IMG/VR virus record: IMGVR_UViG_3300023049_000574
Location: 32,001 to 96,000 of that record
Reading direction: 5' to 3' (one strand)
Origin: a virus
Length of the DNA: 64,000 bases
Position numbers and translations under genes: made by a program
Shown: positions 17,229-62,255 of the stretch, piece after piece
How positions within the stretch are numbered: position 1 is the first letter of the stretch
Layout: each line of letters begins with the position of its first letter
The notes under the pieces: model-generated
Told to the model about the DNA's origin: nothing
What the model saw: only the letters and a program-made list of their open reading frames with translations
The model's database searches: none

Positions 17229-17522
17229 TTAATCTCCAATTATAGAACTAATTTTATACTCCCTTAGTGCTATTTTTAGTTCTCTGTTTACTTTCTCTGT
17301 TATATCATTGGGTGCGTGTAATTGGAAGTATGTAACATCACCTGTTGCAAAATTGAAGTAAACCCTACTGTCTATATATTTCTGAGAAGAAAAAATCTGA
17401 ACATCGTAAATGAATTTTAGATAGTTGATCCTTTCATCTGTAGCCCCACCATGGCTATATTCATCTTCTAGACGAAAACCATTCTTTATTAATATACCAT
17501 AATATACTTCATATTCTTCCAT
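17229..17522 (-). CDS. Hypothetical protein with C-terminal tag (LREYKISSII)
   Basis: Likely start at ATG 17522 (MEEYEVYY). Confidence 0.65.
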   Translation of the reverse strand: MEEYEVYYGILIKNGFRLEDEYSHGGATDERINYLKFIYDVQIFSSQKYIDSRVYFNFATGDVTYFQLHAPNDITEKVNRELKIALREYKISSIIGD

Positions 17523-17721
17523 AATTAATCTTACCGATATTATCTTCGTCTTCAAAGGTAGGAGTAACACTAATTATTTCAGCTACCCCATCTCCCATAC
17601 TACCCATAGGAACAGCTTCTTCGACTTGCCATTCTTCCCAATCACTTGGGCATCTAGCAGTAGTCTACCTATAATTACCCTCACAAGAAGTATATTCTAT
17701 CTTCCAATATTCGTATTCCAT
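17509..17721 (-). pseudogene. Small ORF interrupted by in-frame TAG (codon 19)
   Basis: MEYEYWKIEYTSCEGNYR*TTARCPSDWEEWQVEEAVPMGSMGDGVAEIISVTPTFEDEDNIGKINYGRI; TAG at 17665-17667; host-type promoter 4 nt upstream. Confidence 0.6.
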
Positions 17722-17734
17722 TAAGCAAATATAG

Positions 17735-17956
17735 CTAAAATATGCGCATGAATCCCTTATTTACGCCTAAAAAATCACCTATTTGATAATCATAACCATA
17801 TTCCTTGATACAACTAATAACTAGATCTTTCATATCTTCTGAGTTACCTGTTATAATTATAAGCTCGTTTCTATCATAATACTTACATATAAACTGATCA
17901 ATCTTACTACTTACCTCACTATGTCTTGTATTATGTAAATCTAATTCAGGTATCAT
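17735..17956 (-). CDS. Smr/MutS2 C-terminal domain small protein
   Basis: LDLHNTRH, IITGNS, N.G. Confidence 0.7.
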   Translation of the reverse strand: MIPELDLHNTRHSEVSSKIDQFICKYYDRNELIIITGNSEDMKDLVISCIKEYGYDYQIGDFLGVNKGFMRIF

Positions 17957-18004
17957 TAAACAAATTACTTATTTTTTGATATATAGTAAAAAGTATAATT
18001 CATT

Positions 18005-19123
18005 ATGGGTAAAGTCTATTTATCGACTGATTGGCACTTCGGTGTATATAAAGTAAACTTAAATAAATGGTTGAATATCCAACTAGATTATTTTTATAAA
18101 GAATTTATACCACACCTTAAAAAAACATCAGAGAAAGGAGATATTCTAATTATGTTAGGTGATCTATTTGATGATAGAACAAGTGTGCCGATTATTGTTC
18201 AAAATAAAGTAGAGCAATTATTAATAGATATAGCTGATATCTTACCGATTCACTTAATCGTTGGAAACCATGATTGTTGGAACAAAGGTAATAATGAGAT
18301 TAATAGCCCTAGACTATTCAGACATTTAGATAATGTACATATCTATGATAGTACACATGTTCTAGAAATGGGCGGTAAGAAATTAGTACTAATGCCTTGG
18401 GTTGAACATAGAGATGATATGATCCAAGCTATTAAAGATAACCAAGGAGATTATTTATTTTGCCATAGTGATTTAAATGGGTGTAGAATGCACTTATCAA
18501 GTGTCGCACATAGAAACAGTAGTAAGATAGAAGTTGATGAATTTAGTGGGTATATAAGGGTGTTCAGTGGTCATATCCATATACGTCAAATACATAAAAA
18601 CTTTGAATTCATTGGCGCACCATATCAGATGGATCGTAATGACTATCATGATAATAAGGGTATGACTATATTAGATCTCGGAACAGGTGAAACTGAATTC
18701 ATAGAAAACACAATTAGCCCAACATTTAAGAAACATAAGATTGAGAAAGACGGTGATATTCTTTTATTAGCTCATATTGATACCAAAAAACATTTTGTTG
18801 ATTTAGAAATAAATAACTCTGTATTAGTTGGTAAGAGAAAGAATAGAAAGTTATTAGAGGAACACTTGAGTAATAAACAATTTTCTTCTGTTCAGTATAT
18901 CAATGATTTGGTTAAGGAAAGAAAGAAGAATGATGAGGTTGAGATAGAAGATGTAGATATTGCGGATCTTCAATTTGACGACTTCGATAAAACTATTATT
19001 AAGTATGTTGAACATCAATCCTATGAAACAAAGGATATTAAAGAAGGTGTTGGATCGGAGCTAGAGAAAGTTCTAAATATATATAATAAAGAACATAAAT
19101 TTAAAAGTGATGAACAACAATAA
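18005..19123 (+). CDS. Recombination endonuclease subunit (T4 gp47 / SbcD / Mre11-like)
   Basis: TDWHFG, GDLFD, GNHD, FCH, SGHIH, IGAPYQ. Confidence 0.9.
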   Translation: MGKVYLSTDWHFGVYKVNLNKWLNIQLDYFYKEFIPHLKKTSEKGDILIMLGDLFDDRTSVPIIVQNKVEQLLIDIADILPIHLIVGNHDCWNKGNNEINSPRLFRHLDNVHIYDSTHVLEMGGKKLVLMPWVEHRDDMIQAIKDNQGDYLFCHSDLNGCRMHLSSVAHRNSSKIEVDEFSGYIRVFSGHIHIRQIHKNFEFIGAPYQMDRNDYHDNKGMTILDLGTGETEFIENTISPTFKKHKIEKDGDILLLAHIDTKKHFVDLEINNSVLVGKRKNRKLLEEHLSNKQFSSVQYINDLVKERKKNDEVEIEDVDIADLQFDDFDKTIIKYVEHQSYETKDIKEGVGSELEKVLNIYNKEHKFKSDEQQ

Positions 19124-19286
19124 AGAAAAGATAAACGCAGAAGACCTATTATCGAAAACACTAGCAGGGGAGCTTAGTAAAGAAATAGATAAAATGATAA
19201 TCGAGGATTTGAAAGAAATGGCAACACAAATGAAAATCGAAGACAGGGATAAGTTTATCGATAGTATATTAAAGGGAAAGAAATAA
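19110..19286 (+). CDS. 58-aa protein with C-terminal tag (DRDKFIDSIL); not in ORF track
   Basis: Translated by hand: MNNNKEKINAEDLLSKTLAGELSKEIDKMIIEDLKEMATQMKIEDRDKFIDSILKGKK. Confidence 0.7.
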   Translation: MNNNKEKINAEDLLSKTLAGELSKEIDKMIIEDLKEMATQMKIEDRDKFIDSILKGKK

Positions 19287-19287
19287 A

Positions 19288-19428
19288 ATGAGGAATAGGA
19301 AAAAGAAATTAATAATGGGTGGATACACACCTAAGGCTGCTATATTAGCCAAGAAGGTGAAAGAACGTAGGTTAAAAATAGCCAAACGAAATAAAATAAT
19401 AGATCGGATATTAAATGATAAAAAATGA
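19288..19428 (+). CDS. 46-aa basic protein with C-terminal tag (KRNKIIDRIL); not in ORF track
   Basis: Translated by hand: MRNRKKKLIMGGYTPKAAILAKKVKERRLKIAKRNKIIDRILNDKK. Confidence 0.65.
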   Translation: MRNRKKKLIMGGYTPKAAILAKKVKERRLKIAKRNKIIDRILNDKK

Positions 19429-19792
19429 GACTTGTTTAATTGTAAATGGTAATAAGTATATCGAAATAATGATAAATGATATTACTATACGCCAAGATCA
19501 AGAACAATTTTCCTATTTCAATGAAAATAAAATGGAACTAGCTATTTCCACTTGGTGGAATATAGACCTTTTAGATTTTTTAAACGCAGGTGAACGTGTG
19601 GATATCTATTTTCTACATAGGGATTGTGTTGAACGAAACCTACTATTAAATTCATATAGCGTTGAGAGTGATCTAATATCGATAGACCTAGTAACTTATG
19701 ATAGACAAATAACAAGCTACAAGAAAGATTTTATCTATATAGCTTATATGAGAGATAAAAAAATAGATAACTTACTAGATGGAGATGGATAG
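19415..19792 (+). CDS. Hypothetical protein with C-terminal tag (MRDKKIDNLL)
   Basis: ORF track plus motif. Confidence 0.7.
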   Translation: MIKNETCLIVNGNKYIEIMINDITIRQDQEQFSYFNENKMELAISTWWNIDLLDFLNAGERVDIYFLHRDCVERNLLLNSYSVESDLISIDLVTYDRQITSYKKDFIYIAYMRDKKIDNLLDGDG

Positions 19793-20219
19793 CACTACTG
19801 CAGAAACTGAGGATATTGTATTTATGGTATCTAAACACAGACTTACTAAAAATTTCTTCATAGAAGATGTGTATTACCAATTAGATGATTATAATAATAT
19901 TAGAATAGAAATACATTACGAAATTCAACAAGATAAAGAAGAACAAAGAGATATTATCATAACTGAATTATTTGATCATTTAGAATCTGAGTTCTTCTTG
20001 GATTCCATTTATTTTATGGAATCAAGTATCTATATAAGCAGAGTAGATGTATTTAATGGGAATAAAGAAAATGATGGTAAAATTTGGTTAGATATAACAG
20101 CAACAAGCAGGAAATACTCTACGAAGTTAGGTGATTTAAACCTTTTAGATACAAATGAATATAATATTTACAAAGCTAGTAAAAGAAACAAATTTATAGA
20201 TAATATAATCAATGAATGA
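19779..20219 (+). CDS. Hypothetical protein with C-terminal tag (KRNKFIDNII)
   Basis: ORF track plus motif. Confidence 0.7.
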   Translation: MEMDSTTAETEDIVFMVSKHRLTKNFFIEDVYYQLDDYNNIRIEIHYEIQQDKEEQRDIIITELFDHLESEFFLDSIYFMESSIYISRVDVFNGNKENDGKIWLDITATSRKYSTKLGDLNLLDTNEYNIYKASKRNKFIDNIINE

Positions 20220-20394
20220 AATAGAAAGGTTAAAAGACGAACTAAGAAATATTGATGCTAAAAAAAGACGTGCTATCGAACATCAACAATATGAGACAGC
20301 AGCAGAAGCAAGAACAGAGGAAAAAAGACTAACAGAAATTATAGAAAAGTTAGAAAAAAGATACGATATAATAGATAGTATATTAAATGGATAA
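20212..20394 (+). CDS. UVR (UvrB/UvrC) motif mini-protein with C-terminal tag (KRYDIIDSIL)
   Basis: KRRAIEHQQYETAAEARTEEKRL resembles ClpC M-domain KKTVIKQQQYEKAAKIRDMEREL in this window. Confidence 0.75.
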   Translation: MNEIERLKDELRNIDAKKRRAIEHQQYETAAEARTEEKRLTEIIEKLEKRYDIIDSILNG

Positions 20395-20779
20395 TTATAT
20401 ACACGTATTAGAAGATAATAATGGATTTTATCCAATTGGTAAAGGTATATGCTCTCCTGTTGATCTGATACCGATGGACGAAGATCCTTCTAATATGAGA
20501 ATGCTTATGTTGATACGTATTCAAATATATGAAGATGCAGAACATATGCACGAAATTTTCAATAGGTTGGAAAAGTTTAATATCTATACAACAGATCCTA
20601 ACGATAGGCATTATTTTAGTGGCTGTGAACTATCTGATCTATATAGTAGAGAGTCTTTATCGGTATACTTAACGTATAAACAATATGAATATTTAAGTGA
20701 TGAAGAATTTAAAAACAAGATGTCGTACTTCAGTTCTATAATAAGAGATGATAAAATAGATGGGATATTAAATATATAA
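20387..20779 (+). CDS. Hypothetical protein with C-terminal tag (IRDDKIDGIL)
   Basis: ORF track plus motif. Confidence 0.7.
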   Translation: MDNYIHVLEDNNGFYPIGKGICSPVDLIPMDEDPSNMRMLMLIRIQIYEDAEHMHEIFNRLEKFNIYTTDPNDRHYFSGCELSDLYSRESLSVYLTYKQYEYLSDEEFKNKMSYFSSIIRDDKIDGILNI

Positions 20780-20782
20780 GGT

Positions 20783-21268
20783 ATGGATTATATGAAAAGC
20801 TTTGAGTCGTTTGAAACAGATGATATAAAATATATGCTTAAAAGAGCAGAAAAGAATGGTGATATTGTTATTAAAACAAATGCTGATTCTGTCTTAAAAA
20901 ATTTACATGAAATAAAAATAGGTAGCTTTGAATCTCTTATTTTGAAAAACCCCAATAACTCAGTTGTTTATAAGTGGTTATATAAAGAACATATAACAGA
21001 GTTAATTGATAAATTTGGTGGGATGGGACTAGATGTTTCTGAGTTAAAGAAACTAAATAAAGGATATTTGGAAAGGCACTTTAATATTGATGAAAGGATA
21101 TCAGAACTTCTTTATGATGGTGATCCTGATTTCGAAACCGAAGAAGAAAGAGATAAGGAAGTTGAACGACTTCAAATAGAGTCTGATCAAGCTGAGACTA
21201 AAATGGAAGAAGTTAAAAAGGAGATCATAAAGCTCAAAGAACAAGCCCATAAAATATTAACTGATTAA
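20783..21268 (+). CDS. Coiled-coil protein with CTS-like N-terminus (MDYMKSFESFE)
   Basis: AATATATA-N4-ATG. Confidence 0.7.
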   Translation: MDYMKSFESFETDDIKYMLKRAEKNGDIVIKTNADSVLKNLHEIKIGSFESLILKNPNNSVVYKWLYKEHITELIDKFGGMGLDVSELKKLNKGYLERHFNIDERISELLYDGDPDFETEEERDKEVERLQIESDQAETKMEEVKKEIIKLKEQAHKILTD

Positions 21269-21293: not shown

Positions 21294-21298
21294 GGCTA

Positions 21299-22517: not shown

Positions 22518-22676
22518 CTAAATCCTTCCATCTACTTCTCTACTCGGTTTAGTTTTACTATTAACGAATTTCATCATTTTTCTCGCTAATCTATCTTGAC
22601 CTAATACACTTGCTTTAGCTGCTGATTTTATATAAGTATCAGTGTTTAACTCGTTTATTTTCTTTAAATATTTCAT
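22518..22676 (-). CDS. 52-aa CTS-like protein paralogous to N-terminus of 22673..23320; not in ORF track
   Basis: MKYLKKINELNTDTYIKSAAKASVLGQDRLARKMMKF versus MEYLRKINELNAETYKNAAKKVKEMGQ. Confidence 0.65.
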   Translation of the reverse strand: MKYLKKINELNTDTYIKSAAKASVLGQDRLARKMMKFVNSKTKPSREVDGRI

Positions 22677-23320
22677 AATCTATCGTAATACTTTCTAGGT
22701 TGGATATTAGATTTGAATTCCTTAAAACTCCCAAAGATATTATTTATAAATTCATTGAACTCACCGTTTTCTATATCAGGTACTTCGGTGTCGTTTAACT
22801 TACCCATCATTTTAGCTACGGTATTTCTATCTTCCATCTTATAATACTTTTCTAATATAGCTATAAATGTATTAAAGTCCTTTCTAGATGCAAATTTATT
22901 TTTATCTCCTGTGAATTCCATATCGACTTTACCATTATCTTCTGTAATAGCACAGTTTAAACCTATGTGTTCATCGGGGTGTTGGTGTCCTATATCCTTT
23001 CTAAATTGTTCTAAATCTGCATTTAAGAAAATAAAACATATATCGGGTTCAGGTACATCTATATCAGCCATATTAACGTCCAATATTTTAGAACTTACCT
23101 TATGTAGATCCCCCTCATATAAAACTTCTTCGATATTCATCTTGAAACTATTTTGTTCTATTAAAGTTTGTTTAAGTCTATTCTCTTGGCTCATTGATCT
23201 AAACCTATACATCTTCATTAGATCTTGGTAGGTTTTCATTTGACCCATTTCTTTAACTTTCTTAGCAGCGTTTTTATACGTTTCTGCATTTAGCTCATTT
23301 ATTTTTCTTAAATATTCCAT
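22673..23320 (-). CDS. CTS-like protein, paralogue of 23331..23885
   Basis: Shared FAS..DF..FI.IL.K.Y..ED....A.M.G.L.DT...GEF.EF C-domain. Confidence 0.75.
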   Translation of the reverse strand: MEYLRKINELNAETYKNAAKKVKEMGQMKTYQDLMKMYRFRSMSQENRLKQTLIEQNSFKMNIEEVLYEGDLHKVSSKILDVNMADIDVPEPDICFIFLNADLEQFRKDIGHQHPDEHIGLNCAITEDNGKVDMEFTGDKNKFASRKDFNTFIAILEKYYKMEDRNTVAKMMGKLNDTEVPDIENGEFNEFINNIFGSFKEFKSNIQPRKYYDRL

Positions 23321-23330
23321 ATCCTATATA

Positions 23331-23885
23331 TTAAACCCTATTATGTTTTTTTAAAGTTGTTTCGAATTTATCAAAATTATCAAAGTTAGTTTTCACAAAC
23401 TCAAAAAACTCACCACCTTGTATATTATGGTCTTTTAGATCCGTATCACTTAATCTCCCAATCATAGTAGCAATAGCTCCTTTATCTTCTGATAAATAAA
23501 ACTTTCTTAATATGTTTATAAATTTTTGGAAATCTTCCTTTGATGCAAAGTTATTATCTCCTTCGCCATCATTATGTACTATTACTCCATCATGGTATAT
23601 ATCTAAATCAAATGATAATGAGTAATTTCCATTATAGCCTATCTTATCTTCTATTTCATTTTCTATATATGTATCTACAAATCCTAAAAATACATTAGCA
23701 CGATCTTCAACAGAAGAATCAACACCCGTTATTTTAATATCTACTATCATATCTATATCGGTATAATAAGTATCTGCTGTTATCGCATCTAATTTATATT
23801 TAAAACTTTCCTTTCCTAAAAATTCCCTAATTTCGTCCCTGTGGGATTCGTTTATAAATTGGTCGAATTTTTTTATAACTTTCAT
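23331..23885 (-). CDS. CTS-like protein (MKVIKKFDQFINES)
   Basis: N-terminal motif; paralogy with neighbour. Confidence 0.75.
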   Translation of the reverse strand: MKVIKKFDQFINESHRDEIREFLGKESFKYKLDAITADTYYTDIDMIVDIKITGVDSSVEDRANVFLGFVDTYIENEIEDKIGYNGNYSLSFDLDIYHDGVIVHNDGEGDNNFASKEDFQKFINILRKFYLSEDKGAIATMIGRLSDTDLKDHNIQGGEFFEFVKTNFDNFDKFETTLKKHNRV

Positions 23886-23929
23886 ATAATATATATTAAA
23901 CTTTTGGATAATAAAATGATATTATATAT

Positions 23930-24121
23930 ATGGAAGATTATTACCAAGATTTAGAATTGATGAAATTGTACAAAGAAGGTAATTTACAAATCTTAACAGA
24001 TGGTTCTGTTTCTATTATAAACAAAATACAATATGTTCACTATAGAAAGGGTTCACCATTTACTAATCGATGCAAAATACTCATAAGAGATACAAAAATA
24101 GACCAAATACTAAATGATTAA
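23930..24121 (+). CDS. Small protein with C-terminal tag (IRDTKIDQIL)
   Basis: ORF track plus motif. Confidence 0.7.
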   Translation: MEDYYQDLELMKLYKEGNLQILTDGSVSIINKIQYVHYRKGSPFTNRCKILIRDTKIDQILND

Positions 24122-24944: not shown

Positions 24945-24955
24945 TAATTAAAGAT

Positions 24956-38518: not shown

Positions 38519-38848
38519 ATGGGTTCAATTGTCTTTAAAATGGATTTACTGCTTGCGTATGCTATGGATGGTGATGTAAAACACGTTAAAAACTTATTAG
38601 ATGCTAATAGCAAGCTAATGGAATTAGACATATTCTATTTAGTGGGGACTACTATAAGAAGACATCTAGTGGATAATCGAAAAAGAGAAAATATGATTGA
38701 AATAGTTAATCATATTTTAGATCAACCTTATGTTGATATCAATGTTCTTATTGAGAACAAAGACGATCTTTTAGGAAGAAGATTAGTAGATGAATTAAAA
38801 GAACTCAAAAGAAAAAGACGTAATAATTTAATTGATAAAATCATATAA
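38519..38848 (+). CDS. Hypothetical protein with C-terminal tag (RRNNLIDKII)
   Basis: Host-type promoter at 38505; motif. Confidence 0.7.
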   Translation: MGSIVFKMDLLLAYAMDGDVKHVKNLLDANSKLMELDIFYLVGTTIRRHLVDNRKRENMIEIVNHILDQPYVDINVLIENKDDLLGRRLVDELKELKRKRRNNLIDKII

Positions 38849-40468
38849 ATGGGACATTATTCACATAGTTGTCAGCTCAGTGGGCTACCTATCACAGATA
38901 ACGAAAAGGTATATTTTCAAATACTAATAAACAACGTATATTATAAATATACTGAAAATGGATACGGTAAATCTAATATAATTTCAAACGATACAACAAG
39001 GCTAAAATTTAATCCATTCGCATTGCCCATTAAAGGTGAGTATAATGGATACGGTAGATTAGAGAATATAGAAGAAGATGAAAATACTAAAATACTAGAA
39101 AAGTATTTTGGGATGCCTATTAAAGAAATAACAGACATCATCTGCTCAAACAGAAAAGATGATGGTTATGACGATATATTAAAGAAACTGAAAACCAATC
39201 CTGAACATGAATATGGGGATAATGTAAAATATAAAGAAGAGTATAAAGAAATCCTATCCTTATCGGCTACTTGGTTTAGAAAAGATGTAGTTGATAAACT
39301 AAATAATAGAAAAAGAGAATATCTTGAGTACCAAATAGGAGAGCCTTATATAGTAGAATACTTAGGGTTTAAACATAAACAAGAAGATACCTATGAAAAA
39401 GATGGAATAGAGCTAATGTGTGGTACATATATAATAGAAACCGAGAAAGGCACACTTTATGATATTAGTAATCTACAACAATATTTGAAGAATAAAAGAA
39501 TTGACACCAACGGAAAGATGGACGAATTAATGGAAATGGATTCTATTGATATATTCTACAATTTCGGTGTGAAAAATATGATAGATTATGAAAACTTTAC
39601 AGAGGAACAAAAAAAGAAGGCTTTAGCTATAATCGAAAAAACATATCCTACTATGTACAAGGTAATAAAAGAAACGGATGGGGATATTATAGATATAATC
39701 AAGAGTATTATGTTATCAGGAGGTAATAATGAATTTGATCATTTTATCCTAAAGTATCAGAATTATGAATCTCCTCTTTATTCTAAGTATGTATCTGTTG
39801 CTAAGAAAGGAGAATTAAAAGAATTAGTTAGGTCTAATAGAACGATAAGTAATTATTTATATGTTACAGGTAGATATTATGACTACGTAGGTACATCGCC
39901 ACAAGATGGTGATTTCGACGAAGTTCAGAACCTATTGAAAGTTTCTTTAGAACTTAATATTAATAAGTATGAAGATAGAGAAGCGGGCGATGTAGATTAC
40001 AATGGTTATGATAACCAATTCCTAAAAGTATCCTGTAAGAAAGGATATCTTAGTGTTATTGAAGACCACTATGAAGAGAATGATTTCGATGTTGAATTAT
40101 TTCGAGTTTTATCAGATCAATCTATATTATATGACCAAGTAGAGATACTTGAGTTCCTTTTTCGGTTAGTATCAACAGAGGGTCACGTGAGTAATTCTTT
40201 CCGTATAGCAGTGGAAAATAATGCTAAGAAGTGTATTGATTTTATAATGAGCCATAATAAGTTCATAAACGAACATATAACCGATAGATTAGTAATTGCT
40301 CATAAAAATGAAGAAGTTTTAATTCGATTATTAAATCACCCTGAGTTTGATTTAGATAAAATAGATTTTGAAGGTTATTATTTGAAACATAATGAGGTAA
40401 CTAAAGTAAGTTTATCGGGTATAATTGCTGATATTAGGGATCAAAAAATAGACGAAATATTATCATAA
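38849..40468 (+). CDS. Hypothetical protein with ankyrin-like C-half and C-terminal tag (IRDQKIDEIL)
   Basis: MGHYSHSCQLSGLPI, LPIKGEYNGYG N-domain; motif at end. Confidence 0.7.
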   Translation: MGHYSHSCQLSGLPITDNEKVYFQILINNVYYKYTENGYGKSNIISNDTTRLKFNPFALPIKGEYNGYGRLENIEEDENTKILEKYFGMPIKEITDIICSNRKDDGYDDILKKLKTNPEHEYGDNVKYKEEYKEILSLSATWFRKDVVDKLNNRKREYLEYQIGEPYIVEYLGFKHKQEDTYEKDGIELMCGTYIIETEKGTLYDISNLQQYLKNKRIDTNGKMDELMEMDSIDIFYNFGVKNMIDYENFTEEQKKKALAIIEKTYPTMYKVIKETDGDIIDIIKSIMLSGGNNEFDHFILKYQNYESPLYSKYVSVAKKGELKELVRSNRTISNYLYVTGRYYDYVGTSPQDGDFDEVQNLLKVSLELNINKYEDREAGDVDYNGYDNQFLKVSCKKGYLSVIEDHYEENDFDVELFRVLSDQSILYDQVEILEFLFRLVSTEGHVSNSFRIAVENNAKKCIDFIMSHNKFINEHITDRLVIAHKNEEVLIRLLNHPEFDLDKIDFEGYYLKHNEVTKVSLSGIIADIRDQKIDEILS

Positions 40469-41176: not shown

Positions 41177-43273
41177 ATGAATAATATGAAAGATCAAAAC
41201 TTAGAAATTTCGAATTCATCAGCAACTCCTGATGAAGACAACCCGAATGACGACAACAACAGAGGTGGAAAGGATAATAAGAAACGAAAGGAAAGCACAA
41301 CTCCTGTTTTAGATCAGTTTGGAAGAAATATTTCTGAGATGGTTGAAGATGGTAAAATCGATCCTATCATCGGTAGAGATAAGGAAGTCGAAAGGGTTTC
41401 TCAAATTCTTAGTAGAAAGAAGAAAAACAATCCTATTTTGATAGGTGAACCAGGTACAGGTAAATCTGCAATTGCGGAAGCATTAGCACTTAGAATTTAC
41501 CACAAGAAAGTATCTCGTGCTTTGTTTGATAAGATAATTATCAACTTAGATCTTGGTTCTTTAGTTGCAGGTACTAAATATCGTGGACAATTCGAAGAAA
41601 GAATGAAAGCCGTTATCGATGAATTAACAGCAAATGATCACATCATTTTGTTTATCGATGAAATCCACACTATTGTTGGTGCGGGTGGCACATCAGGTAG
41701 CTTAGATGCTGCTAATATGATTAAGCCTGCTTTAGCAAGGGGTGAGCTACAATGTATTGGTGCAACTACTTTGGACGAGTACAGAGAGAACATCGAAAAA
41801 GATGGCGCACTAGTAAGACGTTTCCAAAAAGTAATGATCGAGCCTACTTCGGAAGAAGACACAATAGAAATTTTACGTTCTATTAAAGAAGTGTATGAAA
41901 ATCACCACAATGTAAATTATACAGATGATGCAATTGATGCTTGTGTTACATTGACTTCTAGATATATTACAGATAGGTTTCTTCCCGACAAGGCTATTGA
42001 TGCAATGGATGAATCAGGTAGCAGAGTGAATATCTCTAATATCGAAGTTCCTGAAAAAATCACAACTTTAGAAGAAAAGATTGCGGAACTTAACGTGGAG
42101 AAGAAAACTGTTATCAAGCAGCAACAATATGAGAAGGCTGCTAAGATCAGAGATATGGAAAGAGAACTCCAAGATGAACTCCAAGTTGCTAAAGATGAAT
42201 GGGAAGATGAAATGAAAAAGAACAAGAAGACAGTAAGTGCTTCTGATGTTGCCGAAGTAGTTTCTATGATAACAGGAATTCCTGTTACTAAAGTTGACTC
42301 CGCAGAGGGTTCTAACTTAGCAAATCTTGATCAAACTATCATTGATAAAGTGATTGGTCAGGACGATGCGGTAAGAAAAGTAGTGAAAGCTATTAAGAGA
42401 AACCGTGCGGGTCTTAAAGATCCAAACAAGCCTGTGGGATCATTTATCTTCTTAGGTGCTTCAGGTGTTGGTAAAACACAGCTTTGTAAAGTTATCGCTG
42501 AGAATATGTTCGAAGGTGTTGAAAGCTTAGTGCGTGTGGATATGAGTGAGTATATGGAAAAATTCTCTGTAAACAAACTTATCGGTTCACCTCCTGGTTA
42601 TGTTGGACACGACGAAGGTGGTAGATTAACAGAAGCAATCAGAAGAAAGCCTTATAGTGTTATACTATTGGATGAAATTGAGAAAGCTCACCCTGACATC
42701 TTTAACTTACTTCTCCAAGTATTGGATGAGGGACACTTAACTGATGGTCTTGGTAGAAAAGTAGATTTCAAAAACACGATTATCATTATGACCTCTAACG
42801 TAGGTGTGAGAAAAATCGCTGATTTTGGTGCAGGTGTTGGTTTCCAAACCACTAGCAGATCTTCTCAAAAAGATAAGAACAACAGAAGTGTTCTTGAAAA
42901 AGAAATGAAGAAGAAGTTTGCTCCTGAGTTCTTAAATCGTGTTGATGACATCATAGTATTCAATAACTTGAAGAAAGAGGATATCAATAAGATTGTAGAA
43001 ATCGAACTTCGTATTCTTGAAAAAAGAATCAACAAATTAGGCTTTGATATCACAGTACGTAAAAAAGCAATTGAATTCATCTCAAATGAAGGATTCAACC
43101 CCGAATATGGTGTTAGACCGCTTAAAAGGGCTATTCAGCGTTATGTTGAAGACCCTATTGCAGAACAAATGGTGGATGATCCATCAGTTCAAAGTGGTAA
43201 GATCACTATAACCCACAACAAGGGAGATGACGAATTGACTGTTACCCTAAAGGGTAAGAAAGTTAATAGCTAA
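41177..43273 (+). CDS. clpC: ClpC-type AAA+ chaperone/protease ATPase lacking Clp N-domain
   Basis: DPIIGR, GEPGTGKS, FIDEIH, GATTLDEY, LPDKAID, UVR M-domain, GASGVGKT, PPGYVG, LLDEIEKAH, GVGF (ClpP-docking loop). Confidence 0.95.
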   Translation: MNNMKDQNLEISNSSATPDEDNPNDDNNRGGKDNKKRKESTTPVLDQFGRNISEMVEDGKIDPIIGRDKEVERVSQILSRKKKNNPILIGEPGTGKSAIAEALALRIYHKKVSRALFDKIIINLDLGSLVAGTKYRGQFEERMKAVIDELTANDHIILFIDEIHTIVGAGGTSGSLDAANMIKPALARGELQCIGATTLDEYRENIEKDGALVRRFQKVMIEPTSEEDTIEILRSIKEVYENHHNVNYTDDAIDACVTLTSRYITDRFLPDKAIDAMDESGSRVNISNIEVPEKITTLEEKIAELNVEKKTVIKQQQYEKAAKIRDMERELQDELQVAKDEWEDEMKKNKKTVSASDVAEVVSMITGIPVTKVDSAEGSNLANLDQTIIDKVIGQDDAVRKVVKAIKRNRAGLKDPNKPVGSFIFLGASGVGKTQLCKVIAENMFEGVESLVRVDMSEYMEKFSVNKLIGSPPGYVGHDEGGRLTEAIRRKPYSVILLDEIEKAHPDIFNLLLQVLDEGHLTDGLGRKVDFKNTIIIMTSNVGVRKIADFGAGVGFQTTSRSSQKDKNNRSVLEKEMKKKFAPEFLNRVDDIIVFNNLKKEDINKIVEIELRILEKRINKLGFDITVRKKAIEFISNEGFNPEYGVRPLKRAIQRYVEDPIAEQMVDDPSVQSGKITITHNKGDDELTVTLKGKKVNS

Positions 43274-54163: not shown

Positions 54164-54535
54164 ATGAATATGAGCTACGATAAGTTTCAGAACAATTTAA
54201 TCAGGCTTTTCAAAATATTTGAGAAAAGACCTAACCATTTAAGTCAATTTCTAATTGAAAACGATGCTTTTAATGAAGACTTCAAAAAGAATGTTATCAA
54301 AAGCGAAAACCTTAATTCGATCAATGAGTTATCTGAATCACTTATTGATTTCTCTGACTTTGATGAAATGAATGAATTTTTAAATGACCTTATTAAAAAC
54401 CATAAGAAAAATAAAATAGTGTCTGAAAGCAAGATGAACAAAGAGTTATTTAAATTAATTTCAGAAGAAAAATTCGAAGATGCTGCCGCTTTGAGAGATT
54501 ATATGAAAAAAAATCAAATAAAAATTAAACTTTAA
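54164..54535 (+). CDS. Protein with C-terminal UVR (UvrB/UvrC) motif
   Basis: LFKLISEEKFEDAAALRDYM. Confidence 0.7.
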   Translation: MNMSYDKFQNNLIRLFKIFEKRPNHLSQFLIENDAFNEDFKKNVIKSENLNSINELSESLIDFSDFDEMNEFLNDLIKNHKKNKIVSESKMNKELFKLISEEKFEDAAALRDYMKKNQIKIKL

Positions 54536-55959: not shown

Positions 55960-56544
55960 TCAATTCTTAGAAAGTTTATCTAATATTCTCTTTTCATACT
56001 CACTAAGAGATTTCATACCAAACTTACTGATCTTATCTAAGATATCGTCTAATGTCATAGAATCTACTTCTTCTTTATCCACCTCTTCTAAAAGTTTAGG
56101 ACTCATTAAACTATATAACTCATTATTTTCTATATCATTAGGGATACTATCAATCACTTCTTTAATGTTATAGTGATTCTGCTCATACCTCATTATCGGG
56201 CATAATAAGAACGCAAAATCCTCTTCTATTAAAGGTGGTATAAAATCATCAACAATTTCTCCCCTGATATATTTATCATATTTTATATAAACTTCTACTA
56301 TTACCCTAGATAGCTCGTAGTCTAATCGGTCATCGTATTTCATTTTATATTTAGTATCCTCTATTATTTGGTCTTCCTCATCTTCTATTACGGGATATGT
56401 TCCCCAAGTATAGAAGAAATATAATTCTTCTTCATCTAATTTTTCATTAGCATAAGATTCAAGATCTTTTAGAAACCTTTCAGTTATATCAGGGAAATCA
56501 AGTTTGAATTCTTCGTATGACACAAGTATTTCTTTCATAATCAA
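55960..56544 (-). CDS. Acidic protein with DUF6576-like C-terminal tail
   Basis: LDDILDKISKFGMKSLSEYEKRIL. Confidence 0.7.
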   Translation of the reverse strand: MIMKEILVSYEEFKLDFPDITERFLKDLESYANEKLDEEELYFFYTWGTYPVIEDEEDQIIEDTKYKMKYDDRLDYELSRVIVEVYIKYDKYIRGEIVDDFIPPLIEEDFAFLLCPIMRYEQNHYNIKEVIDSIPNDIENNELYSLMSPKLLEEVDKEEVDSMTLDDILDKISKFGMKSLSEYEKRILDKLSKN

Positions 56545-57207: not shown

Positions 57208-57732
57208 ATGGATATTTTTCATTTCATATTAGGTGTAATATTTGGCGCATCCGCAGTAATTGTTGGGATTTCTATTAATGTACATAGGTCAGAATATAAG
57301 AAATATGTGCTACCTTTTAAAAAATTAATCGGTGAGCATATATCTAGTTTTACATTCAACACGAGAGTAGCAAATTTAGTTTACTTCAACCATAAAGATT
57401 ATACGGTTGTTCTAAACCTTAAAGAAAAAGAAGTTTACTTATACCAAGATACTACTATTATCGCAACTACTTTCAAAGAGAACACACAAGAAGTGAAGCA
57501 TCTATATACTTTATTAGAAACAGCATACCACGCAGATATTTATCTTAAGATTATTACAGCATCAAATGGTGTAGTAATGTCACAACCCAAGGAAACAGAT
57601 GTTAGTAAGAAAGAGAAAGAACATGTTCATACACCAAGCGTTGATGATATTTTAGATAAGATCAGCAAAGATGGGATGGATAGCTTATCTGAAATAGAAT
57701 TAGAGATCCTTAAAAATAATAGTGATGATTAA
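57208..57732 (+). CDS. Membrane-anchored protein with DUF6576-like tail
   Basis: N-terminal TM helix; VDDILDKISKDGMDSLSEIELEIL. Confidence 0.7.
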   Translation: MDIFHFILGVIFGASAVIVGISINVHRSEYKKYVLPFKKLIGEHISSFTFNTRVANLVYFNHKDYTVVLNLKEKEVYLYQDTTIIATTFKENTQEVKHLYTLLETAYHADIYLKIITASNGVVMSQPKETDVSKKEKEHVHTPSVDDILDKISKDGMDSLSEIELEILKNNSDD

Positions 57733-58600: not shown

Positions 58601-59353
58601 ATGAGAAAGATACTAGAATTCGAAGAAAAGGACTTAAAACCCACAAATAGCTTTAAATTAAACGATACTTTAAATCCCGATTTATGGGAAGACATGAATC
58701 TGAAACAAGAAGTCAGAGAAAAATTAATCGAAATAGCTAATGAGTTTATATCAATGATACACGGAGAATTCTCAGTAAGTGATATTTATTTCACAGGATC
58801 TTTAGCTTCTTATAATTGGAGTGAGTATTCAGACGTAGATATTCATGTAAAGATTGATTTCAGTGAGATTAATGATGATACCGAATTAGTAGAAGAATAT
58901 TTGAAACTAGTAGCAAAGAAATTCAATAATGGTTATGACATTTCAATATATAAATATGATGTTGAAATATATTTAGAAGATGTTTCTGAAGAAAGGGAAC
59001 ACGTGAATGGATTATATAGTATTTTAAATGATAAGTGGGTAAAGAAAGCTTCGCCATTTGATCGTGAGATAGATGTTAAATTAGTTGAGGAAAAAGCGAT
59101 CAATTTAATGGAACAAATTGATGAACTCTTAGATAAAGATGAAAAGAATGAAATCGAGAAGGAAGAACTAATCGAAGAGATCAATAAGATTTGGCTTAAA
59201 ATAAAAAAGTCTAGAAAAGATGGGATCAGTTCCCCTGACGGTGATCTATCTATTGGTAATCTAGTATTTAAATATCTTAGAAGAAATGAATATATTTCTA
59301 AGATCATAGGAGTCAAAAAGGAAGTAGTAGAAGCTAAGTATAGCTTAGACTAA
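58601..59353 (+). CDS. Pol-beta superfamily nucleotidyltransferase, CTS-like N-terminus
   Basis: FTGSLASYNWSEYSDVDIH, DVEIY, NLVFKYLRR. Confidence 0.8.
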   Translation: MRKILEFEEKDLKPTNSFKLNDTLNPDLWEDMNLKQEVREKLIEIANEFISMIHGEFSVSDIYFTGSLASYNWSEYSDVDIHVKIDFSEINDDTELVEEYLKLVAKKFNNGYDISIYKYDVEIYLEDVSEEREHVNGLYSILNDKWVKKASPFDREIDVKLVEEKAINLMEQIDELLDKDEKNEIEKEELIEEINKIWLKIKKSRKDGISSPDGDLSIGNLVFKYLRRNEYISKIIGVKKEVVEAKYSLD

Positions 59354-59713
59354 TTCGTTTAACTTTTTATCTCTAATAAGCTGTTTTAAATTATCACCAT
59401 TTTTTATACCAAGATCAGCATATCTATTTTTAACAATACGTATTTTATTATCTATAATTCTAATAAAAAGAGTAGCACCATATAACAACTCTAAGCCACC
59501 ACGGTCTATTATACGCTCTTCGGTTTGATATATAGTTGTATAAAAAAGGGTATTATCATCGCTTCTAACTTCTTTTGTGGTAGTCCGCATTGTAGTTTCG
59601 ATATCAACTACATTGTCAATATTAAACCGATGGAAAAGGTATCTGATGTTTTCTATCATATTCTCTTCTTTATAAGAATCATCATTTGTTGATATAACTA
59701 TTTTATTCGGCAT
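59345..59713 (-). CDS. Hypothetical protein with C-terminal tag (IRDKKLNELV)
   Basis: Motif at end; IVKNRY. Confidence 0.65.
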   Translation of the reverse strand: MPNKIVISTNDDSYKEENMIENIRYLFHRFNIDNVVDIETTMRTTTKEVRSDDNTLFYTTIYQTEERIIDRGGLELLYGATLFIRIIDNKIRIVKNRYADLGIKNGDNLKQLIRDKKLNELV

Positions 59714-60137
59714 CTTCTAATATTTCGTCTATAATATTATCTCTCTTTACCACAGTATCATATTTATGCCATGATATATTAGATGGCAACATTACAACTT
59801 CATTTTGCTCTATATCTGAGAAAATCATTGTTGTTTTATAAAAACTATATTTAGACGCAGTTTCTGTGTATCCCTCACTTATATGATTAATATCCTTACT
59901 ATTTATTCTACCATAATCATACTTATTCAGTTGTTTTATGAATATTGAATATCTTTGGTAGATAATGAAAGCGATACCTAAATTTATAAGCAGGTTAAAA
60001 ATACTAATATAGGCAAAACTTGTAAGTAAAAATATTATACCTATTGTAGTAGATATTAAAAAAACTATCATAAGGTCGTCTAATAACAACCCTATGATAG
60101 CTTTTTTATCTTTTATATCTAAGTCTTTAAACCGCAT
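59703..60137 (-). CDS. Membrane protein with C-terminal tag (KRDNIIDEIL)
   Basis: Two TM helices, motif at end. Confidence 0.7.
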   Translation of the reverse strand: MRFKDLDIKDKKAIIGLLLDDLMIVFLISTTIGIIFLLTSFAYISIFNLLINLGIAFIIYQRYSIFIKQLNKYDYGRINSKDINHISEGYTETASKYSFYKTTMIFSDIEQNEVVMLPSNISWHKYDTVVKRDNIIDEILEDAE

Positions 60138-60738
60138 GGATAGCCTGATTTACTTCTTCTATACTTAATATGACATTATATAAGAACATCTTAACACCAA
60201 TGGCGATGATAATAATACCGAAAATTCTTTCGATCAAATTAATACCAACTACTCCAAGTTTTCTTTTTAACCAATCTGCTGATTTCAACACAAGAAATAT
60301 GATAATAGAATTTATTAAAATTCCTGTAACAATTTCGATATCTTGGTATTCTGCTCTCATGGATATGATTACGGACAATGTGCCTGGTCCTGCAATGAGA
60401 GGAAAAGCAATCGGAAACACCGTAGCATTAGTAGCTTGTTTTTTAGTTTGTTTATTAGGACTTGACCCAACATCAATTACCATCTGCAGACCAAACCAAC
60501 AGATGAGTAAAGCCCCCGCAACACCAAAGTGGTGTGCATCTACACCCAATAGATTAAATATTGTTTTACCGAAGAAAAGAAACACGATCATTATTATAGT
60601 GGAGATAAGTGTTCCTCTGAAAGAATTGATATGACCTCCGTTGTCTTCTCTTAGTTTAATTATCAGTGGTATGTTGCCAAGCATGTCAATCACAGCAAAG
60701 AGAGTAATAGCAATAGTAGCGATGTTAACGTAGTTCAT
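60127..60738 (-). CDS. MarC family integral membrane protein
   Basis: LFAVIDMLGNIP, FGVAGALL, FPIAFPLIAGPG, RIFGII; likely start 60738. Confidence 0.88.
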   Translation of the reverse strand: MNYVNIATIAITLFAVIDMLGNIPLIIKLREDNGGHINSFRGTLISTIIMIVFLFFGKTIFNLLGVDAHHFGVAGALLICWFGLQMVIDVGSSPNKQTKKQATNATVFPIAFPLIAGPGTLSVIISMRAEYQDIEIVTGILINSIIIFLVLKSADWLKRKLGVVGINLIERIFGIIIIAIGVKMFLYNVILSIEEVNQAIHAV

Positions 60739-60808
60739 TTTATTCTTATATAATATTAGGCGCAAAATTGCGTGGCAAAGATAAGAATTAATTTTAAATA
60801 TATATGGT

Positions 60809-61495
60809 ATGATTAGTTTAAAAGAAGTAGATAACACATTAAAAATATTATTTAGTGAAGCCAAGGTATTATCGTTTGATTCAGTATATGAATTATCCGA
60901 AGATAAAAAATATTATAAATTAGTATTTTCACTACATAATTTAGAAGTAGAAATGAGTGATACTATCGATACTACTATTTTACATACTAAGTTTATATTT
61001 AGAACAGATTTAGAAAAAACTAAACTAGTTGAAAATAGTTTTTGGTATCTTAAAGATATCGATTGTTCTTATGTAAAAAAGAATTTTGATACTAACGATG
61101 ACTTAATCGATGTATTAGAAGAAATTATCAATGAGGATAACTTCGGGGAAGATATGTCAAACCTATCTAATTTTATATCAGAAGCACCTTCTAGTAGTAT
61201 AAATGATTTTCTAAGTCAAGTAGAGTATAGTTTATTTTCAGTAACTACTGTGATGTATAACCCATCTCTTAAATTAGCACCGTGTCAAGAAATGACATTT
61301 GATTTTGATATTACATTAAATAATGGAGAACATATAATTAAATTGAGTATAGAGAAGGTAGATTCAACAGATGTATTTAAGTTTTATTACCACTTATCTG
61401 ATACAGTAGAAGAAATAGATGTTGATGATATTAGCCAACTTGCACAAACTATTGGTGATCATTTAATTTTACTTTTCAATAAATATCTGAAATAA
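60809..61495 (+). CDS. Hypothetical protein
   Basis: ATATATA-N4-ATG. Confidence 0.7.
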   Translation: MISLKEVDNTLKILFSEAKVLSFDSVYELSEDKKYYKLVFSLHNLEVEMSDTIDTTILHTKFIFRTDLEKTKLVENSFWYLKDIDCSYVKKNFDTNDDLIDVLEEIINEDNFGEDMSNLSNFISEAPSSSINDFLSQVEYSLFSVTTVMYNPSLKLAPCQEMTFDFDITLNNGEHIIKLSIEKVDSTDVFKFYYHLSDTVEEIDVDDISQLAQTIGDHLILLFNKYLK

Positions 61496-61538
61496 TTAAA
61501 CTATCTTTACAAACTATTATATAACATTAAAAAGAATT

Positions 61539-61790
61539 ATGTTTAGTATTCAATTTGATCACACAGTTGACGTAGATATTTGTATGACAGATATCATAGG
61601 AAATTTAAATAGCTTTAGTAGAAGTAACCTGATGGAATTAAAATCCGAAATAGAAGACGAAATAGGTGGTGTATATGTTCCTACATTAAATAGGAACGAT
61701 AACACTATCGAAAACGAAGAAAAAATTAAGTTTTTAGTTGATAATATTTGGAATATCGACTTAAAAGATCTAGAAACTATTAAAAAATAA
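61539..61790 (+). CDS. Hypothetical protein
   Basis: After AAAC-N18-TATAA promoter. Confidence 0.6.
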   Translation: MFSIQFDHTVDVDICMTDIIGNLNSFSRSNLMELKSEIEDEIGGVYVPTLNRNDNTIENEEKIKFLVDNIWNIDLKDLETIKK

Positions 61791-61795
61791 AAAAT

Positions 61796-61990
61796 ATGAG
61801 TTATTGTATTGTAAAAATCATGGAAAATAAAGATGGAGGTAGACCTATCCATCACATCATTATTGATAGCATGGCTGAGGTAATGGAATTCACCGAAGAG
61901 GAAACGGCTAAGACCTATAAAGATTTATTGGAAGCTAATTCAGATTCAGGTCATAAATATGTAGTAAAGAAAATTGGGGAAGCAAAATAA
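61796..61990 (+). CDS. Hypothetical protein
   Basis: Operon context. Confidence 0.6.
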   Translation: MSYCIVKIMENKDGGRPIHHIIIDSMAEVMEFTEEETAKTYKDLLEANSDSGHKYVVKKIGEAK

Positions 61991-62255
61991 AGAATCAGAT
62001 ATAAGTATAGGAGATATAGTTAACCTTAATAGGGAGCTAGATAATATCTATATTGATTGGGGAGGCGAAACACCCAAAGACATTAAAGTGATTGATATCA
62101 AAAACTATAAAGGTATCACAGTGGCTATCATTGATAAAGAGTATACGAGATCTGATAATGAGAAGTCGAATGAAATTTCGATTGATTTTTTAGTTAAAGA
62201 TGTAGTAGAAACAAGAAATAATTTCATTGATAATCTTTTGGACGAAGAAGAATAA
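61974..62255 (+). CDS. Hypothetical protein with C-terminal tag (TRNNFIDNLL)
   Basis: Motif near end; start codon uncertain. Confidence 0.6.
   Translation: MGKQNKESDISIGDIVNLNRELDNIYIDWGGETPKDIKVIDIKNYKGITVAIIDKEYTRSDNEKSNEISIDFLVKDVVETRNNFIDNLLDEEE

What the first reader, a model, noticed from the sequence alone, without database searches (positions are those of the whole stretch)
17229..62255. Shared C-terminal tag R-[DN]-x-x-I-D-x-[IL]-[IL] on about 13 unrelated phage proteins
Seen in sequence: proteins with no other similarity end in the same short amphipathic motif. They range from 46 to 539 aa and include soluble and membrane proteins. Instances: 17229(-) LREYKISSII, 19110 DRDKFIDSIL, 19288 KRNKIIDRIL, 19415 MRDKKIDNLL, 19779 KRNKFIDNII, 20212 KRYDIIDSIL, 20387 IRDDKIDGIL, 23930 IRDTKIDQIL, 38519 RRNNLIDKII, 38849 IRDQKIDEIL, 59345(-) IRDKKLNELV, 59703(-) KRDNIIDEIL, 61974 TRNNFIDNLL, and weakly 8560 KRSLYINSML. 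The motif is always within about 5 residues of the stop and uses variable codons, so it is conserved at protein level rather than as a DNA repeat. It never co-occurs with the N-terminal CTS-like peptide. Where a promoter is recognisable upstream it is host-type or AAAC-type, and none of these genes has the ATATATA-N4-ATG arrangement. Inference: a portable address or docking tag read by one receptor, for example a degron or adaptor site for the phage ClpC, or a signal recruiting early proteins to a phage compartment or host complex. I know of no described function for it.
Basis: partly seen in the sequence, partly recalled or inferred. Interest (0 to 1): 0.9.

Follow-up and report, generated by a model that had tools for sequence, protein, structure and literature searches.

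The report
Shared C-terminal helix tag, huge phage
About one protein in seven of this uncultured large phage, nearly all small and otherwise unrelated, ends in the same ten-residue helix (R-D-x-K-I-D-x-I-L); it behaves like an undescribed docking label, and its best but unproven candidate reader is the phage's own ClpC unfoldase, which lacks the usual N-terminal domain.

Summary
The motif R-[DNE]-x-x-[IL]-[DN]-x-[IL]-[ILV] ends 24 of 197 ORFs of the 145.5-kb record, against about 0.05 expected; looser variants bring this to 28. Thirteen carriers lie in the window. It is selected at protein level. Synonymous codons follow genome usage, 25 of 28 matches are in frame, and in one orthologous family the tag is the only invariant block.

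The carriers share no detectable similarity and match no Pfam or PHROG family. The same tag ends many ORFs in other AT-rich huge phages that lack Shine-Dalgarno sequences, including the published LR756502.1 and LR745206.1. Those phages share few genes with this one.

The best lead is ClpC at window 41177-43273, which lacks the N-domain but keeps the M-domain and the VGF loop that docks ClpP. A tagged gene sits directly upstream of this ClpC subtype in at least 10 phage records. Tags flank 8 of 12 loci of this subtype against 1 of 68 loci of other phage ClpC types. This could still be shared ancestry.

I found no paper describing the tag.

The parts
19107..19286 (+). 59-aa carrier; tag RDKFIDSIL at 19227-19280, 4 aa before the stop
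19288..19428 (+). 46-aa basic helix plus tag RNKIIDRIL; overlaps the next gene by 14 nt
19415..19792 (+). 125-aa carrier, tag RDKKIDNLL
19779..20219 (+). 146-aa carrier, tag RNKFIDNII
20212..20394 (+). 60-aa protein: UVR hairpin (residues 8-40, Pfam PF02151, 21.8 bits) followed by variant tag RYDIIDSIL
20387..20779 (+). 130-aa carrier, tag RDDKIDGIL
23930..24121 (+). 63-aa carrier, tag RDTKIDQIL
38519..38848 (+). 109-aa carrier, tag RNNLIDKII at the very end; second gene upstream of the 196-aa gene and ClpC
38849..40468 (+). 539-aa carrier, tag RDQKIDEIL; the body is ankyrin-repeat-like only by language-model features and weak structure match (a lead, not an assignment)
59345..59713 (-). 122-aa carrier, variant tag RDKKLNELV at the very end
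59703..60137 (-). 144-aa carrier with two predicted membrane helices; tag RDNIIDEIL plus acidic tail, predicted to face the cytoplasm
   Evidence: topology is inferred from the positive-inside rule
61974..62255 (+). 93-aa carrier, tag RNNFIDNLL plus DEEE tail
17229..17570 (-). 113-aa weak variant, REYKISSII
8560..8850 (+). 96-aa very weak variant, RSLYINSML, 6 aa before the stop
58601..59353 (+). 250-aa nucleotidyltransferase-like protein with weak variant RNEYISKII 14 aa before the stop; homologues occur in three other tag-bearing loci
41177..43273 (+). Candidate reader: 698-aa ClpC orthologue without the N-domain. It has AAA D1, an M-domain with a UVR motif (299-333), AAA D2, and a VGF ClpP-docking loop
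40570..41160 (+). 196-aa acidic protein directly upstream of ClpC. It is conserved in tag-bearing relatives but also in a tag-free huge phage, so it is not a specific partner
54164..54535 (+). 123-aa protein ending in a UVR motif (residues 90-116); its homologue in record G002 ends in the tag instead

Best explanation
The motif is a portable, protein-level docking module. It is a short C-terminal amphipathic helix, roughly h-x-x-h-h-R-[DNE]-x-K-[IL]-[DN]-x-[IL]-[IL] followed by 0-5 polar or acidic residues. It is attached to many small, fast-evolving and otherwise unrelated cytoplasmic proteins of huge phages of probable Bacteroidota hosts, and it ties them all to one shared reader. Shown here: the enrichment, protein-level selection, invariance among orthologues, spread across distantly related phages, and the diversity of the bodies. 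Inferred: that there is a single reader. My preferred reader (about 0.25-0.3 on its own) is the phage's N-domain-less ClpC at window 41177-43273. Having lost the normal adaptor and substrate docking domain, it would recognise the tag helix instead, perhaps on its coiled-coil M-domain. It would then either unfold the tagged proteins and feed them to host ClpP (a timed degron for early proteins), or pull in whatever host proteins the variable bodies hold (an adaptor handle).
For: Enrichment is 24 observed against about 0.05 expected. Codon usage at the conserved positions equals genome usage, and 25 of 28 matches are in frame. In the family encoded upstream of ClpC, with 22-44% identity overall, R, D, I, D and L of the tag are the invariant columns. 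Among loci fetched from IMG/VR with a DNA pattern for the motif, 39 of 117 matches lie in frame within 10 codons of a stop. Other records carry many tags: G005 about 24, G001 18, G002 about 8, LR756502.1 28 and LR745206.1 38. These phages share only 22 of 197 proteins with this one. Conserved positions fall on the a, d, e and g heptad positions, and the b, c and f positions vary, which is the pattern of a helix buried along one broad face (the reading is mine). For ClpC: it is a true orthologue, 761 bits against S. aureus ClpC (6em8), aligned from residue 148 onward, with a UVR M-domain and a VGF loop. No Clp_N domain occurs anywhere in the record, and no phage ClpP occurs in G000 or in the 94%-complete G005. 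A tagged gene lies directly upstream of ClpC in L007/L133, L040, L071, L122, L126, L129, L145, G005, LR756502.1 and LR745206.1. Tags flank 8 of 12 loci of the roughly 700-aa N-less ClpC type against 1 of 68 loci of other phage ClpC types. ClpC was found in 6 of 11 tag-bearing record fragments, where summed completeness predicts about 4.4, against 0 of 4 AT-rich control records. One carrier and one near-carrier have UVR hairpins like the ClpC M-domain.
Against: No binding was shown by any method. The ClpC association may only reflect shared descent of one phage lineage, since tag-bearing ClpCs form the clade closest to the window's. A second N-less ClpC class (about 670 aa, 30 loci) and the long forms with Clp_N have no tags. 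LR756501.1 and LR756504.1 encode more distant ClpC-like proteins and have no tags. Tags are scattered over the whole genome rather than clustered at ClpC. The control records were not themselves checked for absence of tags. The tag's variable distance from the stop (0-16 residues) is unlike classical C-terminal degrons.
Confidence: 0.5

Rival explanations
1. The reader is a conserved host protein of the Bacteroidota hosts, such as a protease, RNA polymerase, ribosome or nucleoid hub. Unrelated phages infecting such hosts converged on, or exchanged, the same docking helix for their early host-takeover proteins.
For: Tag-bearing phages share very few genes. G001, with 18 tags, shares one protein with G000, and no protein cluster is common to all four genomes compared. 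All four lack Shine-Dalgarno sequences (2-3% against 4-8% background), as expected for Bacteroidota hosts. A cultured Flavobacterium sasangense genome encodes an 82-aa protein ending in the tag.
Against: No host is known and no host candidate was tested. Two of the four huge phages of the LR7565xx series checked here have no tags; I recall, but did not check, that the depositors placed them in one clade with predicted Bacteroidetes hosts. In 120 bacterial pattern hits only 2 were C-terminal tags, so host proteins do not seem to use the motif themselves.
Confidence: 0.25
2. There is no common reader. The helix is a self-association or structural element, such as a short coiled coil or a capping helix, inherited by very diverged paralogues that arose by tandem duplication of small genes.
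For: Carriers sit in tandem arrays of similar size: six genes at window 19107-20779 and six at G000 124947-126646. In relatives, a 15-member SH3-like family ends in the variant R-E-x-K-L-K-x-L-G-I, and its model shows a barrel plus a confident terminal helix. The heptad-like pattern is also compatible with helix-helix pairing.
Against: Bodies range from 46 to 539 aa, include a membrane protein, a UVR hairpin and a tube/Hcp-like sandwich, and show no similarity to each other. The invariant Arg and two conserved acidic or amide residues on the buried face fit specific recognition better than generic packing. A structural cap would not be expected to be the only invariant block of a family.
Confidence: 0.15
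3. It is a packaging or ejection signal that loads the carriers into the capsid, or a targeting helix for a phage-built compartment. Analogues are the T4 capsid-targeting sequence, encapsulin cargo-loading peptides and microcompartment encapsulation peptides.
For: Those systems also place one short terminal peptide on unrelated cargo. The phages are huge, with estimated genomes of 250-700 kb from CheckV completeness. The tag is an amphipathic helix like microcompartment encapsulation peptides (from my own knowledge).
Against: Carriers lie in arrays of small orphan genes typical of early regions, not with structural genes (the timing is inferred, not measured). 14% of all ORFs would be an unusually large cargo set. 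No shell or chimallin-like gene was identified; I did not search for one specifically.
Confidence: 0.07
4. The peptide is a by-product of a nucleic-acid signal at gene ends, for example a translation-initiation region for the overlapping downstream gene in hosts without Shine-Dalgarno pairing, a promoter, or a recombination linker.
For: Many carriers overlap or abut the next start codon (-14 to +3 nt). The N-[DE] that often follows the tag encodes that ATG. The regions upstream of start codons are very A/T-rich.
Against: Synonymous sites vary exactly as genome codon usage predicts, and there are no antisense or intergenic copies. Eight of 28 carriers have no downstream gene within 60 nt, and the motif-to-next-start distance varies widely. 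The amino acids are invariant across orthologues whose DNA has diverged.
Confidence: 0.03

Closest known systems
C-terminal degrons and adaptor tails read by AAA+ unfoldases (ssrA tag for ClpX/ClpA; SspB XB tail for the ClpX N-domain; MecA and phospho-arginine for the ClpC N-domain)
   Same: A short terminal peptide on unrelated proteins delivers them to one machine. A ClpC orthologue with a ClpP-docking loop is encoded here and is syntenic with tagged genes.
   Different: The sequence is unrelated. The tag is a helix with conserved charged residues, and it lies 0-16 residues from the end rather than at the free carboxyl end. The ClpC here has no N-domain, which is the known docking site. Degradation has not been shown.
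Pup binding to the coiled-coil N-domain of Mpa/ARC (from my own knowledge)
   Same: An acidic helix containing an I-D-x-V-L-like core docks onto a coiled coil of an AAA+ unfoldase to form a three-helix bundle. The ClpC M-domain is also a coiled coil.
   Different: Pup is a separate protein conjugated to its targets. No ligase or Mpa-type domain is present here. The resemblance is recalled, not tested.
Poxvirus ankyrin/PRANC (F-box-like) proteins
   Same: Variable binding bodies carry one conserved C-terminal motif that hooks them to a degradation machine. The 539-aa carrier has a weak ankyrin-like signal.
   Different: That is a eukaryotic SCF system and a different motif. The ankyrin assignment is not supported by Pfam.
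T4 capsid-targeting sequence and encapsulin cargo-loading peptides
   Same: One short terminal peptide on diverse cargo of a phage or a phage-like shell.
   Different: The CTS is N-terminal and is cleaved. The encapsulin peptide has a different consensus and its genes lie next to the shell gene. The carriers here look like early orphan genes.
Clamp-binding C-terminal tails (bacterial QL[SD]LF; T4 gp43, gp33 and gp55 tails)
   Same: C-terminal L/I-D-x-L/I-hydrophobic tails on several unrelated phage proteins bind one ring.
   Different: There is no Gln. The middle position is polar rather than aromatic. An invariant Arg lies four residues upstream. There are about 28 carriers, none of them a recognisable replication protein.

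Membership tests
Classical C-terminal degron (ssrA-like) | Lies at the extreme C-terminus, with the free carboxylate and last residues recognised | tested here: not met
   The motif ends 0-16 residues before the stop, mode 2
Classical C-terminal degron (ssrA-like) | Confers degradation by a Clp or Lon protease when transplanted | not testable with these tools
   Needs an experiment
T4-type capsid-targeting sequence | N-terminal peptide removed by the prohead protease | tested here: not met
   The tag is C-terminal in every carrier
Bacterial or T4 clamp-binding motif | Consensus QL[SD]LF, or S/T-L-D-F-L-F/Y | tested here: not met
   Column counts show no Gln, an invariant Arg at position 1, and a polar position 7
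UVR motif (PF02151) | Match to the Pfam model over the tag | tested here: not met
   UVR matches cover residues 8-40 of the 60-aa carrier, not the tag, and the other carriers give no UVR match
ClpC (candidate reader, window 41177-43273) | Two AAA+ modules, a short coiled-coil M-domain with a UVR motif, and a ClpP-docking [LIV]-G-[FL] loop | tested here: met
   Pfam AAA, AAA_lid_9, UVR, AAA_2 and ClpB_D2-small; 761 bits to S. aureus ClpC, with VGF aligned to its loop
ClpC (candidate reader, window 41177-43273) | N-terminal Clp_N repeat domain that binds adaptors and phospho-arginine | tested here: not met
   The alignment starts at ClpC residue 148. No Clp_N occurs in G000 or G005. Long phage forms do have it
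Ankyrin-repeat protein (539-aa carrier) | Match to Pfam ankyrin models | tested here: not met
   No Pfam family at E <= 0.01; only language-model score 0.93 with 152 shared features and TM 0.3-0.45

The most novel reading that the evidence does not exclude
Huge phages of Bacteroidota run their own targeted-proteolysis system. A library of small, fast-evolving binder proteins, including folds borrowed from phage parts such as a tail-tube/Hcp-like sandwich, each carries the same helix handle. The handle docks on an N-domain-less phage ClpC, which delivers the binders, and the host proteins they hold, to host ClpP. This would be a bacterial-virus counterpart of viral hijacking of ubiquitin ligases.
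Probability: 0.15. Interest if true: 0.9.

Novelty: new variant of a known kind. Interest (0 to 1): 0.72.

Why it matters
A tenth or more of the proteome of a widespread group of huge phages, including published 634-642 kb genomes, carries one address label that I found in no paper. Identifying its reader would assign a common pathway to dozens of orphan genes per genome at once. It would also show how these phages organise early infection, whether by timed disposal, recruitment of host targets, or assembly on a hub. The result could be a compact portable tag for Bacteroidota, a phylum with few genetic tools. The link to a ClpC that has lost its adaptor-binding domain gives a concrete experiment.

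Tried and rejected
- **Complex prediction.** Complex prediction of ClpC (alignment A3) with the last 35 residues of a carrier gave no verdict (score 0.00, controls not run). The tool was unreachable. This is no evidence either way.
- **Family scans of carriers.** Pfam and PHROG scans of carriers here and in other phages found nothing.
- **Relatives of the 539-aa carrier.** None in IMG/VR by pattern scan.
- **Cultured phages.** tblastn of an SH3-like tagged protein against cultured phages found no match.
- **PDB search.** A profile of the SH3-like family against PDB sequences found nothing significant.
- **Tag alignment as query.** It is too short for the large protein search.
- **Arginine-kinase route.** No McsB-like kinase and no Clp_N, so phospho-arginine marking is unlikely.
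- **Other shared proteins as readers.** The 196-aa neighbour of ClpC is also present in a tag-free phage. The 285-aa and 125-aa candidates are not conserved. The remaining proteins shared between G000 and G005 are ordinary enzymes or DUF6576 proteins.
- **DNA- or RNA-level signal.** Rejected.
- **Tag as half of a UVR motif.** The registers differ and the Pfam model does not match.
- **Exclusion of the ATATATA-start arrangement.** Not significant.
- **Literature.** Three full-text searches found no description of the motif. The jumbo-phage survey PMC7824862 mentions phage ClpP, ClpS, ClpA and ClpX but no shared tag.
- **M-domain comparison.** Comparing M-domain residues between tag-bearing and tag-free ClpCs showed only clade signal.

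Full report
**What is there.** The window is bases 32001-96000 of a single 145,521-bp virus record, G+C 30%, which CheckV estimates to be 58% complete. A crude non-overlapping ORF set of the whole record has 197 ORFs. In that set the pattern R-[DNE]-x-x-[IL]-[DN]-x-[IL]-[ILV] lies within 15 residues of the stop 24 times and elsewhere once. Shuffling whole proteins or only their last 24 residues gives a mean of 0.05-0.07 and never more than 2. A looser pattern gives 28 carriers, or 14% of ORFs, with median length 118 aa against 185 aa for the rest. The finding's own range therefore holds about half of a genome-wide set. Other arrays lie at G000 6019-6423, 22667-25694, 101752-112800, 124947-126646 and 143767-144174.

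**The level of selection.** At the conserved positions the codons are AGA/AGG/CGA/CGT, GAT/GAC, ATA/ATC/ATT and TTA/CTA/TTG/CTT, in the proportions expected from genome-wide usage. Of 28 six-frame matches, 25 are in the coding frame and none is antisense or intergenic. Many carriers overlap the next start codon, and the frequent N-[DE] after the tag encodes that ATG. But eight carriers have no downstream gene within 60 nt, and the distance to the next start varies widely. A nucleic-acid signal is therefore rejected.

**The bodies.** With the tag removed, blastp among carriers gives nothing better than E = 0.04. Pfam and PHROGs find no family. There are three exceptions:
- a UVR hairpin in the 60-aa protein at 20212-20394;
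- a weak nucleotidyltransferase match in a weak carrier;
- one carrier with two membrane helices.

The 539-aa carrier is ankyrin-like only by language-model features, which is a lead and not an assignment.

**Spread beyond this genome.** A DNA pattern for R-D-x-x-I-D-x-I-L pulled 117 matches from IMG/VR. Of these, 39 lie in frame within 10 codons of the stop of an ORF, in many different AT-rich contigs of 40-280 kb. Whole-record counts are as follows.

| Record | Size | Tag matches |
|---|---|---|
| G005 (94% complete) | 281 kb | about 24 |
| G001 | 84.6 kb | 18 |
| G002 | 204 kb | about 8 |
| LR756502.1 (published) | 642 kb | 28 |
| LR745206.1 (published) | 635 kb | 38 |
| LR756501.1 | 735 kb | 0 |
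| LR756504.1 | 636 kb | 0 |

These phages are distant from this one. Only 22 of its 197 proteins have a blastp match in G005, G001 or G002, and G001 shares a single protein. All four genomes are depleted in Shine-Dalgarno cores, at 2-3% of genes against 4-8% background, which is the pattern of Bacteroidota. Among 120 hits of a tighter pattern in bacterial genomes, nearly all were internal segments of ordinary proteins, such as a FeoB-like protein in Clostridia. Only two were C-terminal tags. One is in Flavobacterium sasangense. The other is on a 4-kb phage-like contig binned into a MAG.

**Conservation within families.** The family encoded directly upstream of ClpC has eight members with 22-44% identity. 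It is invariant only at two body positions and at R, D, I, D and L of the tag (A4). Several G002/G005 orthologue pairs both keep the tag, while some homologues carry a degenerate or different end. A 15-member family of roughly 75-aa SH3-like barrels in relatives ends in either the tag or the variant R-E-x-K-L-K-x-L-G-I. Its model has mean pLDDT 85, with a terminal helix at residues 67-82.

**Shape of the tag.** Pooled over 77 tags, position 4 is Lys in 45, position 7 is polar, and the tail is enriched in E, N and D. Hydrophobic residues recur at -5, -2, -1, 5, 8 and 9. Read as a helix, the conserved residues fall on heptad positions a, d, e and g, and the variable ones on b, c and f. This is my inference. 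It suggests a helix buried along one broad face, with Arg and two Asp/Asn residues inside the interface, which means specific recognition.

**The search for a reader.** The window encodes a true ClpC orthologue at 41177-43273. It scores 761 bits against S. aureus ClpC, aligned from that protein's residue 148. It has both AAA modules, an M-domain with a UVR motif, and a VGF loop at the ClpP-docking position, but a 40-residue low-complexity N-terminus instead of the N-domain. Neither Clp_N, ClpP nor a McsB-type kinase is found in G000 or G005.

A tagged gene of about 130 aa sits directly upstream of this ClpC type in L007/L133, L040, L071, L122, L126, L129, L145, G005, LR756502.1 and LR745206.1. 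A second tagged gene often lies just downstream. The upstream protein models as a β-sandwich plus a long terminal helix, and weakly resembles tail-tube/Hcp proteins (E about 3e-3, TM 0.4-0.5).

Among 80 phage ClpC loci with up to 10 kb of flanks, tags occur beside 8 of 12 loci of the roughly 700-aa N-less type. They occur beside only 1 of 68 loci of the other types, which are a roughly 670-aa N-less class and long forms that do have Clp_N (Fisher p = 1.5e-7; the loci are not phylogenetically independent). ClpC was found in 6 of 11 tag-bearing record fragments, where summed completeness predicts about 4.4 if every such phage has one. It was found in 0 of 4 AT-rich control records, which I did not check for tags.

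On the other side, the association can be explained by common descent of one lineage, and tagged genes are spread over the whole genome. The two tag-free huge phages have only distant ClpC-like genes at 45-48% identity. That fits co-inheritance as well as it fits function. Other proteins shared with tag-bearing relatives gave no better candidate.

**Verdict.** The most economical reading is a portable docking helix read by one partner. The partner is unknown, and the N-domain-less phage ClpC is the best lead at roughly one chance in four. A host hub is about as likely, and a reader-free structural or oligomerising helix comes third.

**Literature and earlier notes.** I found no description of the motif in three full-text searches or in the jumbo-phage survey PMC7824862. 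That LR756502.1 and LR745206.1 come from the 2020 survey of huge phages is from my own memory. I verified the claim that a published 642-kb phage carries it. I also add the link to the ClpC subtype.

Noticed in passing
window 41177-43273; loci L122-L201: Phage ClpC homologues fall into three length classes: about 700 aa and about 670 aa, both without Clp_N, and 820-907 aa with Clp_N. More than 585 IMG/VR contigs encode a relative. One long form (L153) has a ClpP gene directly upstream.
   Followed up: partly
G010 (record behind L066), about 19.9-28.4 kb: The ClpC orthologue is matched in three separate pieces over about 8.5 kb (query residues 19-94, 92-434 and 433-687). This suggests inserted elements such as introns or inteins, or a split gene.
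   Followed up: no
L153:8803-9384: Phage ClpP ends in …Y-G-I-I-D-K-I-L-Q. The I-D-x-I-L core of the tag resembles this conserved last helix of ClpP. It may be coincidence.
   Followed up: no
whole record G000, also G001, G002 and G005: Shine-Dalgarno cores are depleted upstream of start codons (2-3% against 4-8% background), and the upstream 20 nt are about 85-90% A+T. This is consistent with Bacteroidota hosts.
   Followed up: partly
L217-L220 (G001), L223 and L227 (G002), L207 and L214 (G005): A multi-copy family of roughly 75-aa SH3/Tudor-like barrels (M-K-V-x-C … L-T-I-G-K-x-Y) with a terminal helix ending in R-E-x-K-L-K-x-L-G-I or in the tag; 13 copies in the 84.6-kb G001 record.
   Followed up: partly
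L203:8417-8815 and orthologues (alignment A4): The tagged protein encoded upstream of ClpC models as a tail-tube/Hcp-like β-sandwich (Foldseek E about 3e-3, TM 0.4-0.5). A tube-like fold outside the structural genes is odd.
   Followed up: partly
L314 (CAYHBE010000189.1, 4,070 bp): A contig binned into a Dehalococcoidales MAG carries three or four tagged small ORFs and the CYTH-like gene seen near ClpC in tag-bearing phages. It is probably a mis-binned phage fragment.
   Followed up: no
L309:3419-3667 (Flavobacterium sasangense DSM 21067): An 82-aa hypothetical protein ends in R-D-S-K-I-D-E-I-L-K-K-E. It has only a handful of close relatives, all unnamed.
   Followed up: partly
Genome-contig hits L234-L352: A protein of many Clostridia and Bacilli, which I take from memory to be FeoB, carries R-D-R-K-I-D-K-I-L-T-S-K just before its first membrane helix. 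It is an internal look-alike of the tag.
   Followed up: no
L002:815-5869 (G000 15815-20869): A 1,684-aa protein with seven DUF285 repeats (Pfam E = 6e-161).
   Followed up: no
window 55960-56544(-), window 57208-57732(+), L004:12281-12814(-): Three paralogues with the 47-residue DUF6576 motif, shared with G002 and G005.
   Followed up: no
L001:656-1459: A tyrosine integrase 70% identical to one in G005, although the two phages share few other genes.
   Followed up: no
window 46484-49702 and 49725-53468: Two adjacent giant ORFs (1,072 and 1,247 aa) with no Pfam family; the first matches only PHROG 29329, of unknown function.
   Followed up: no
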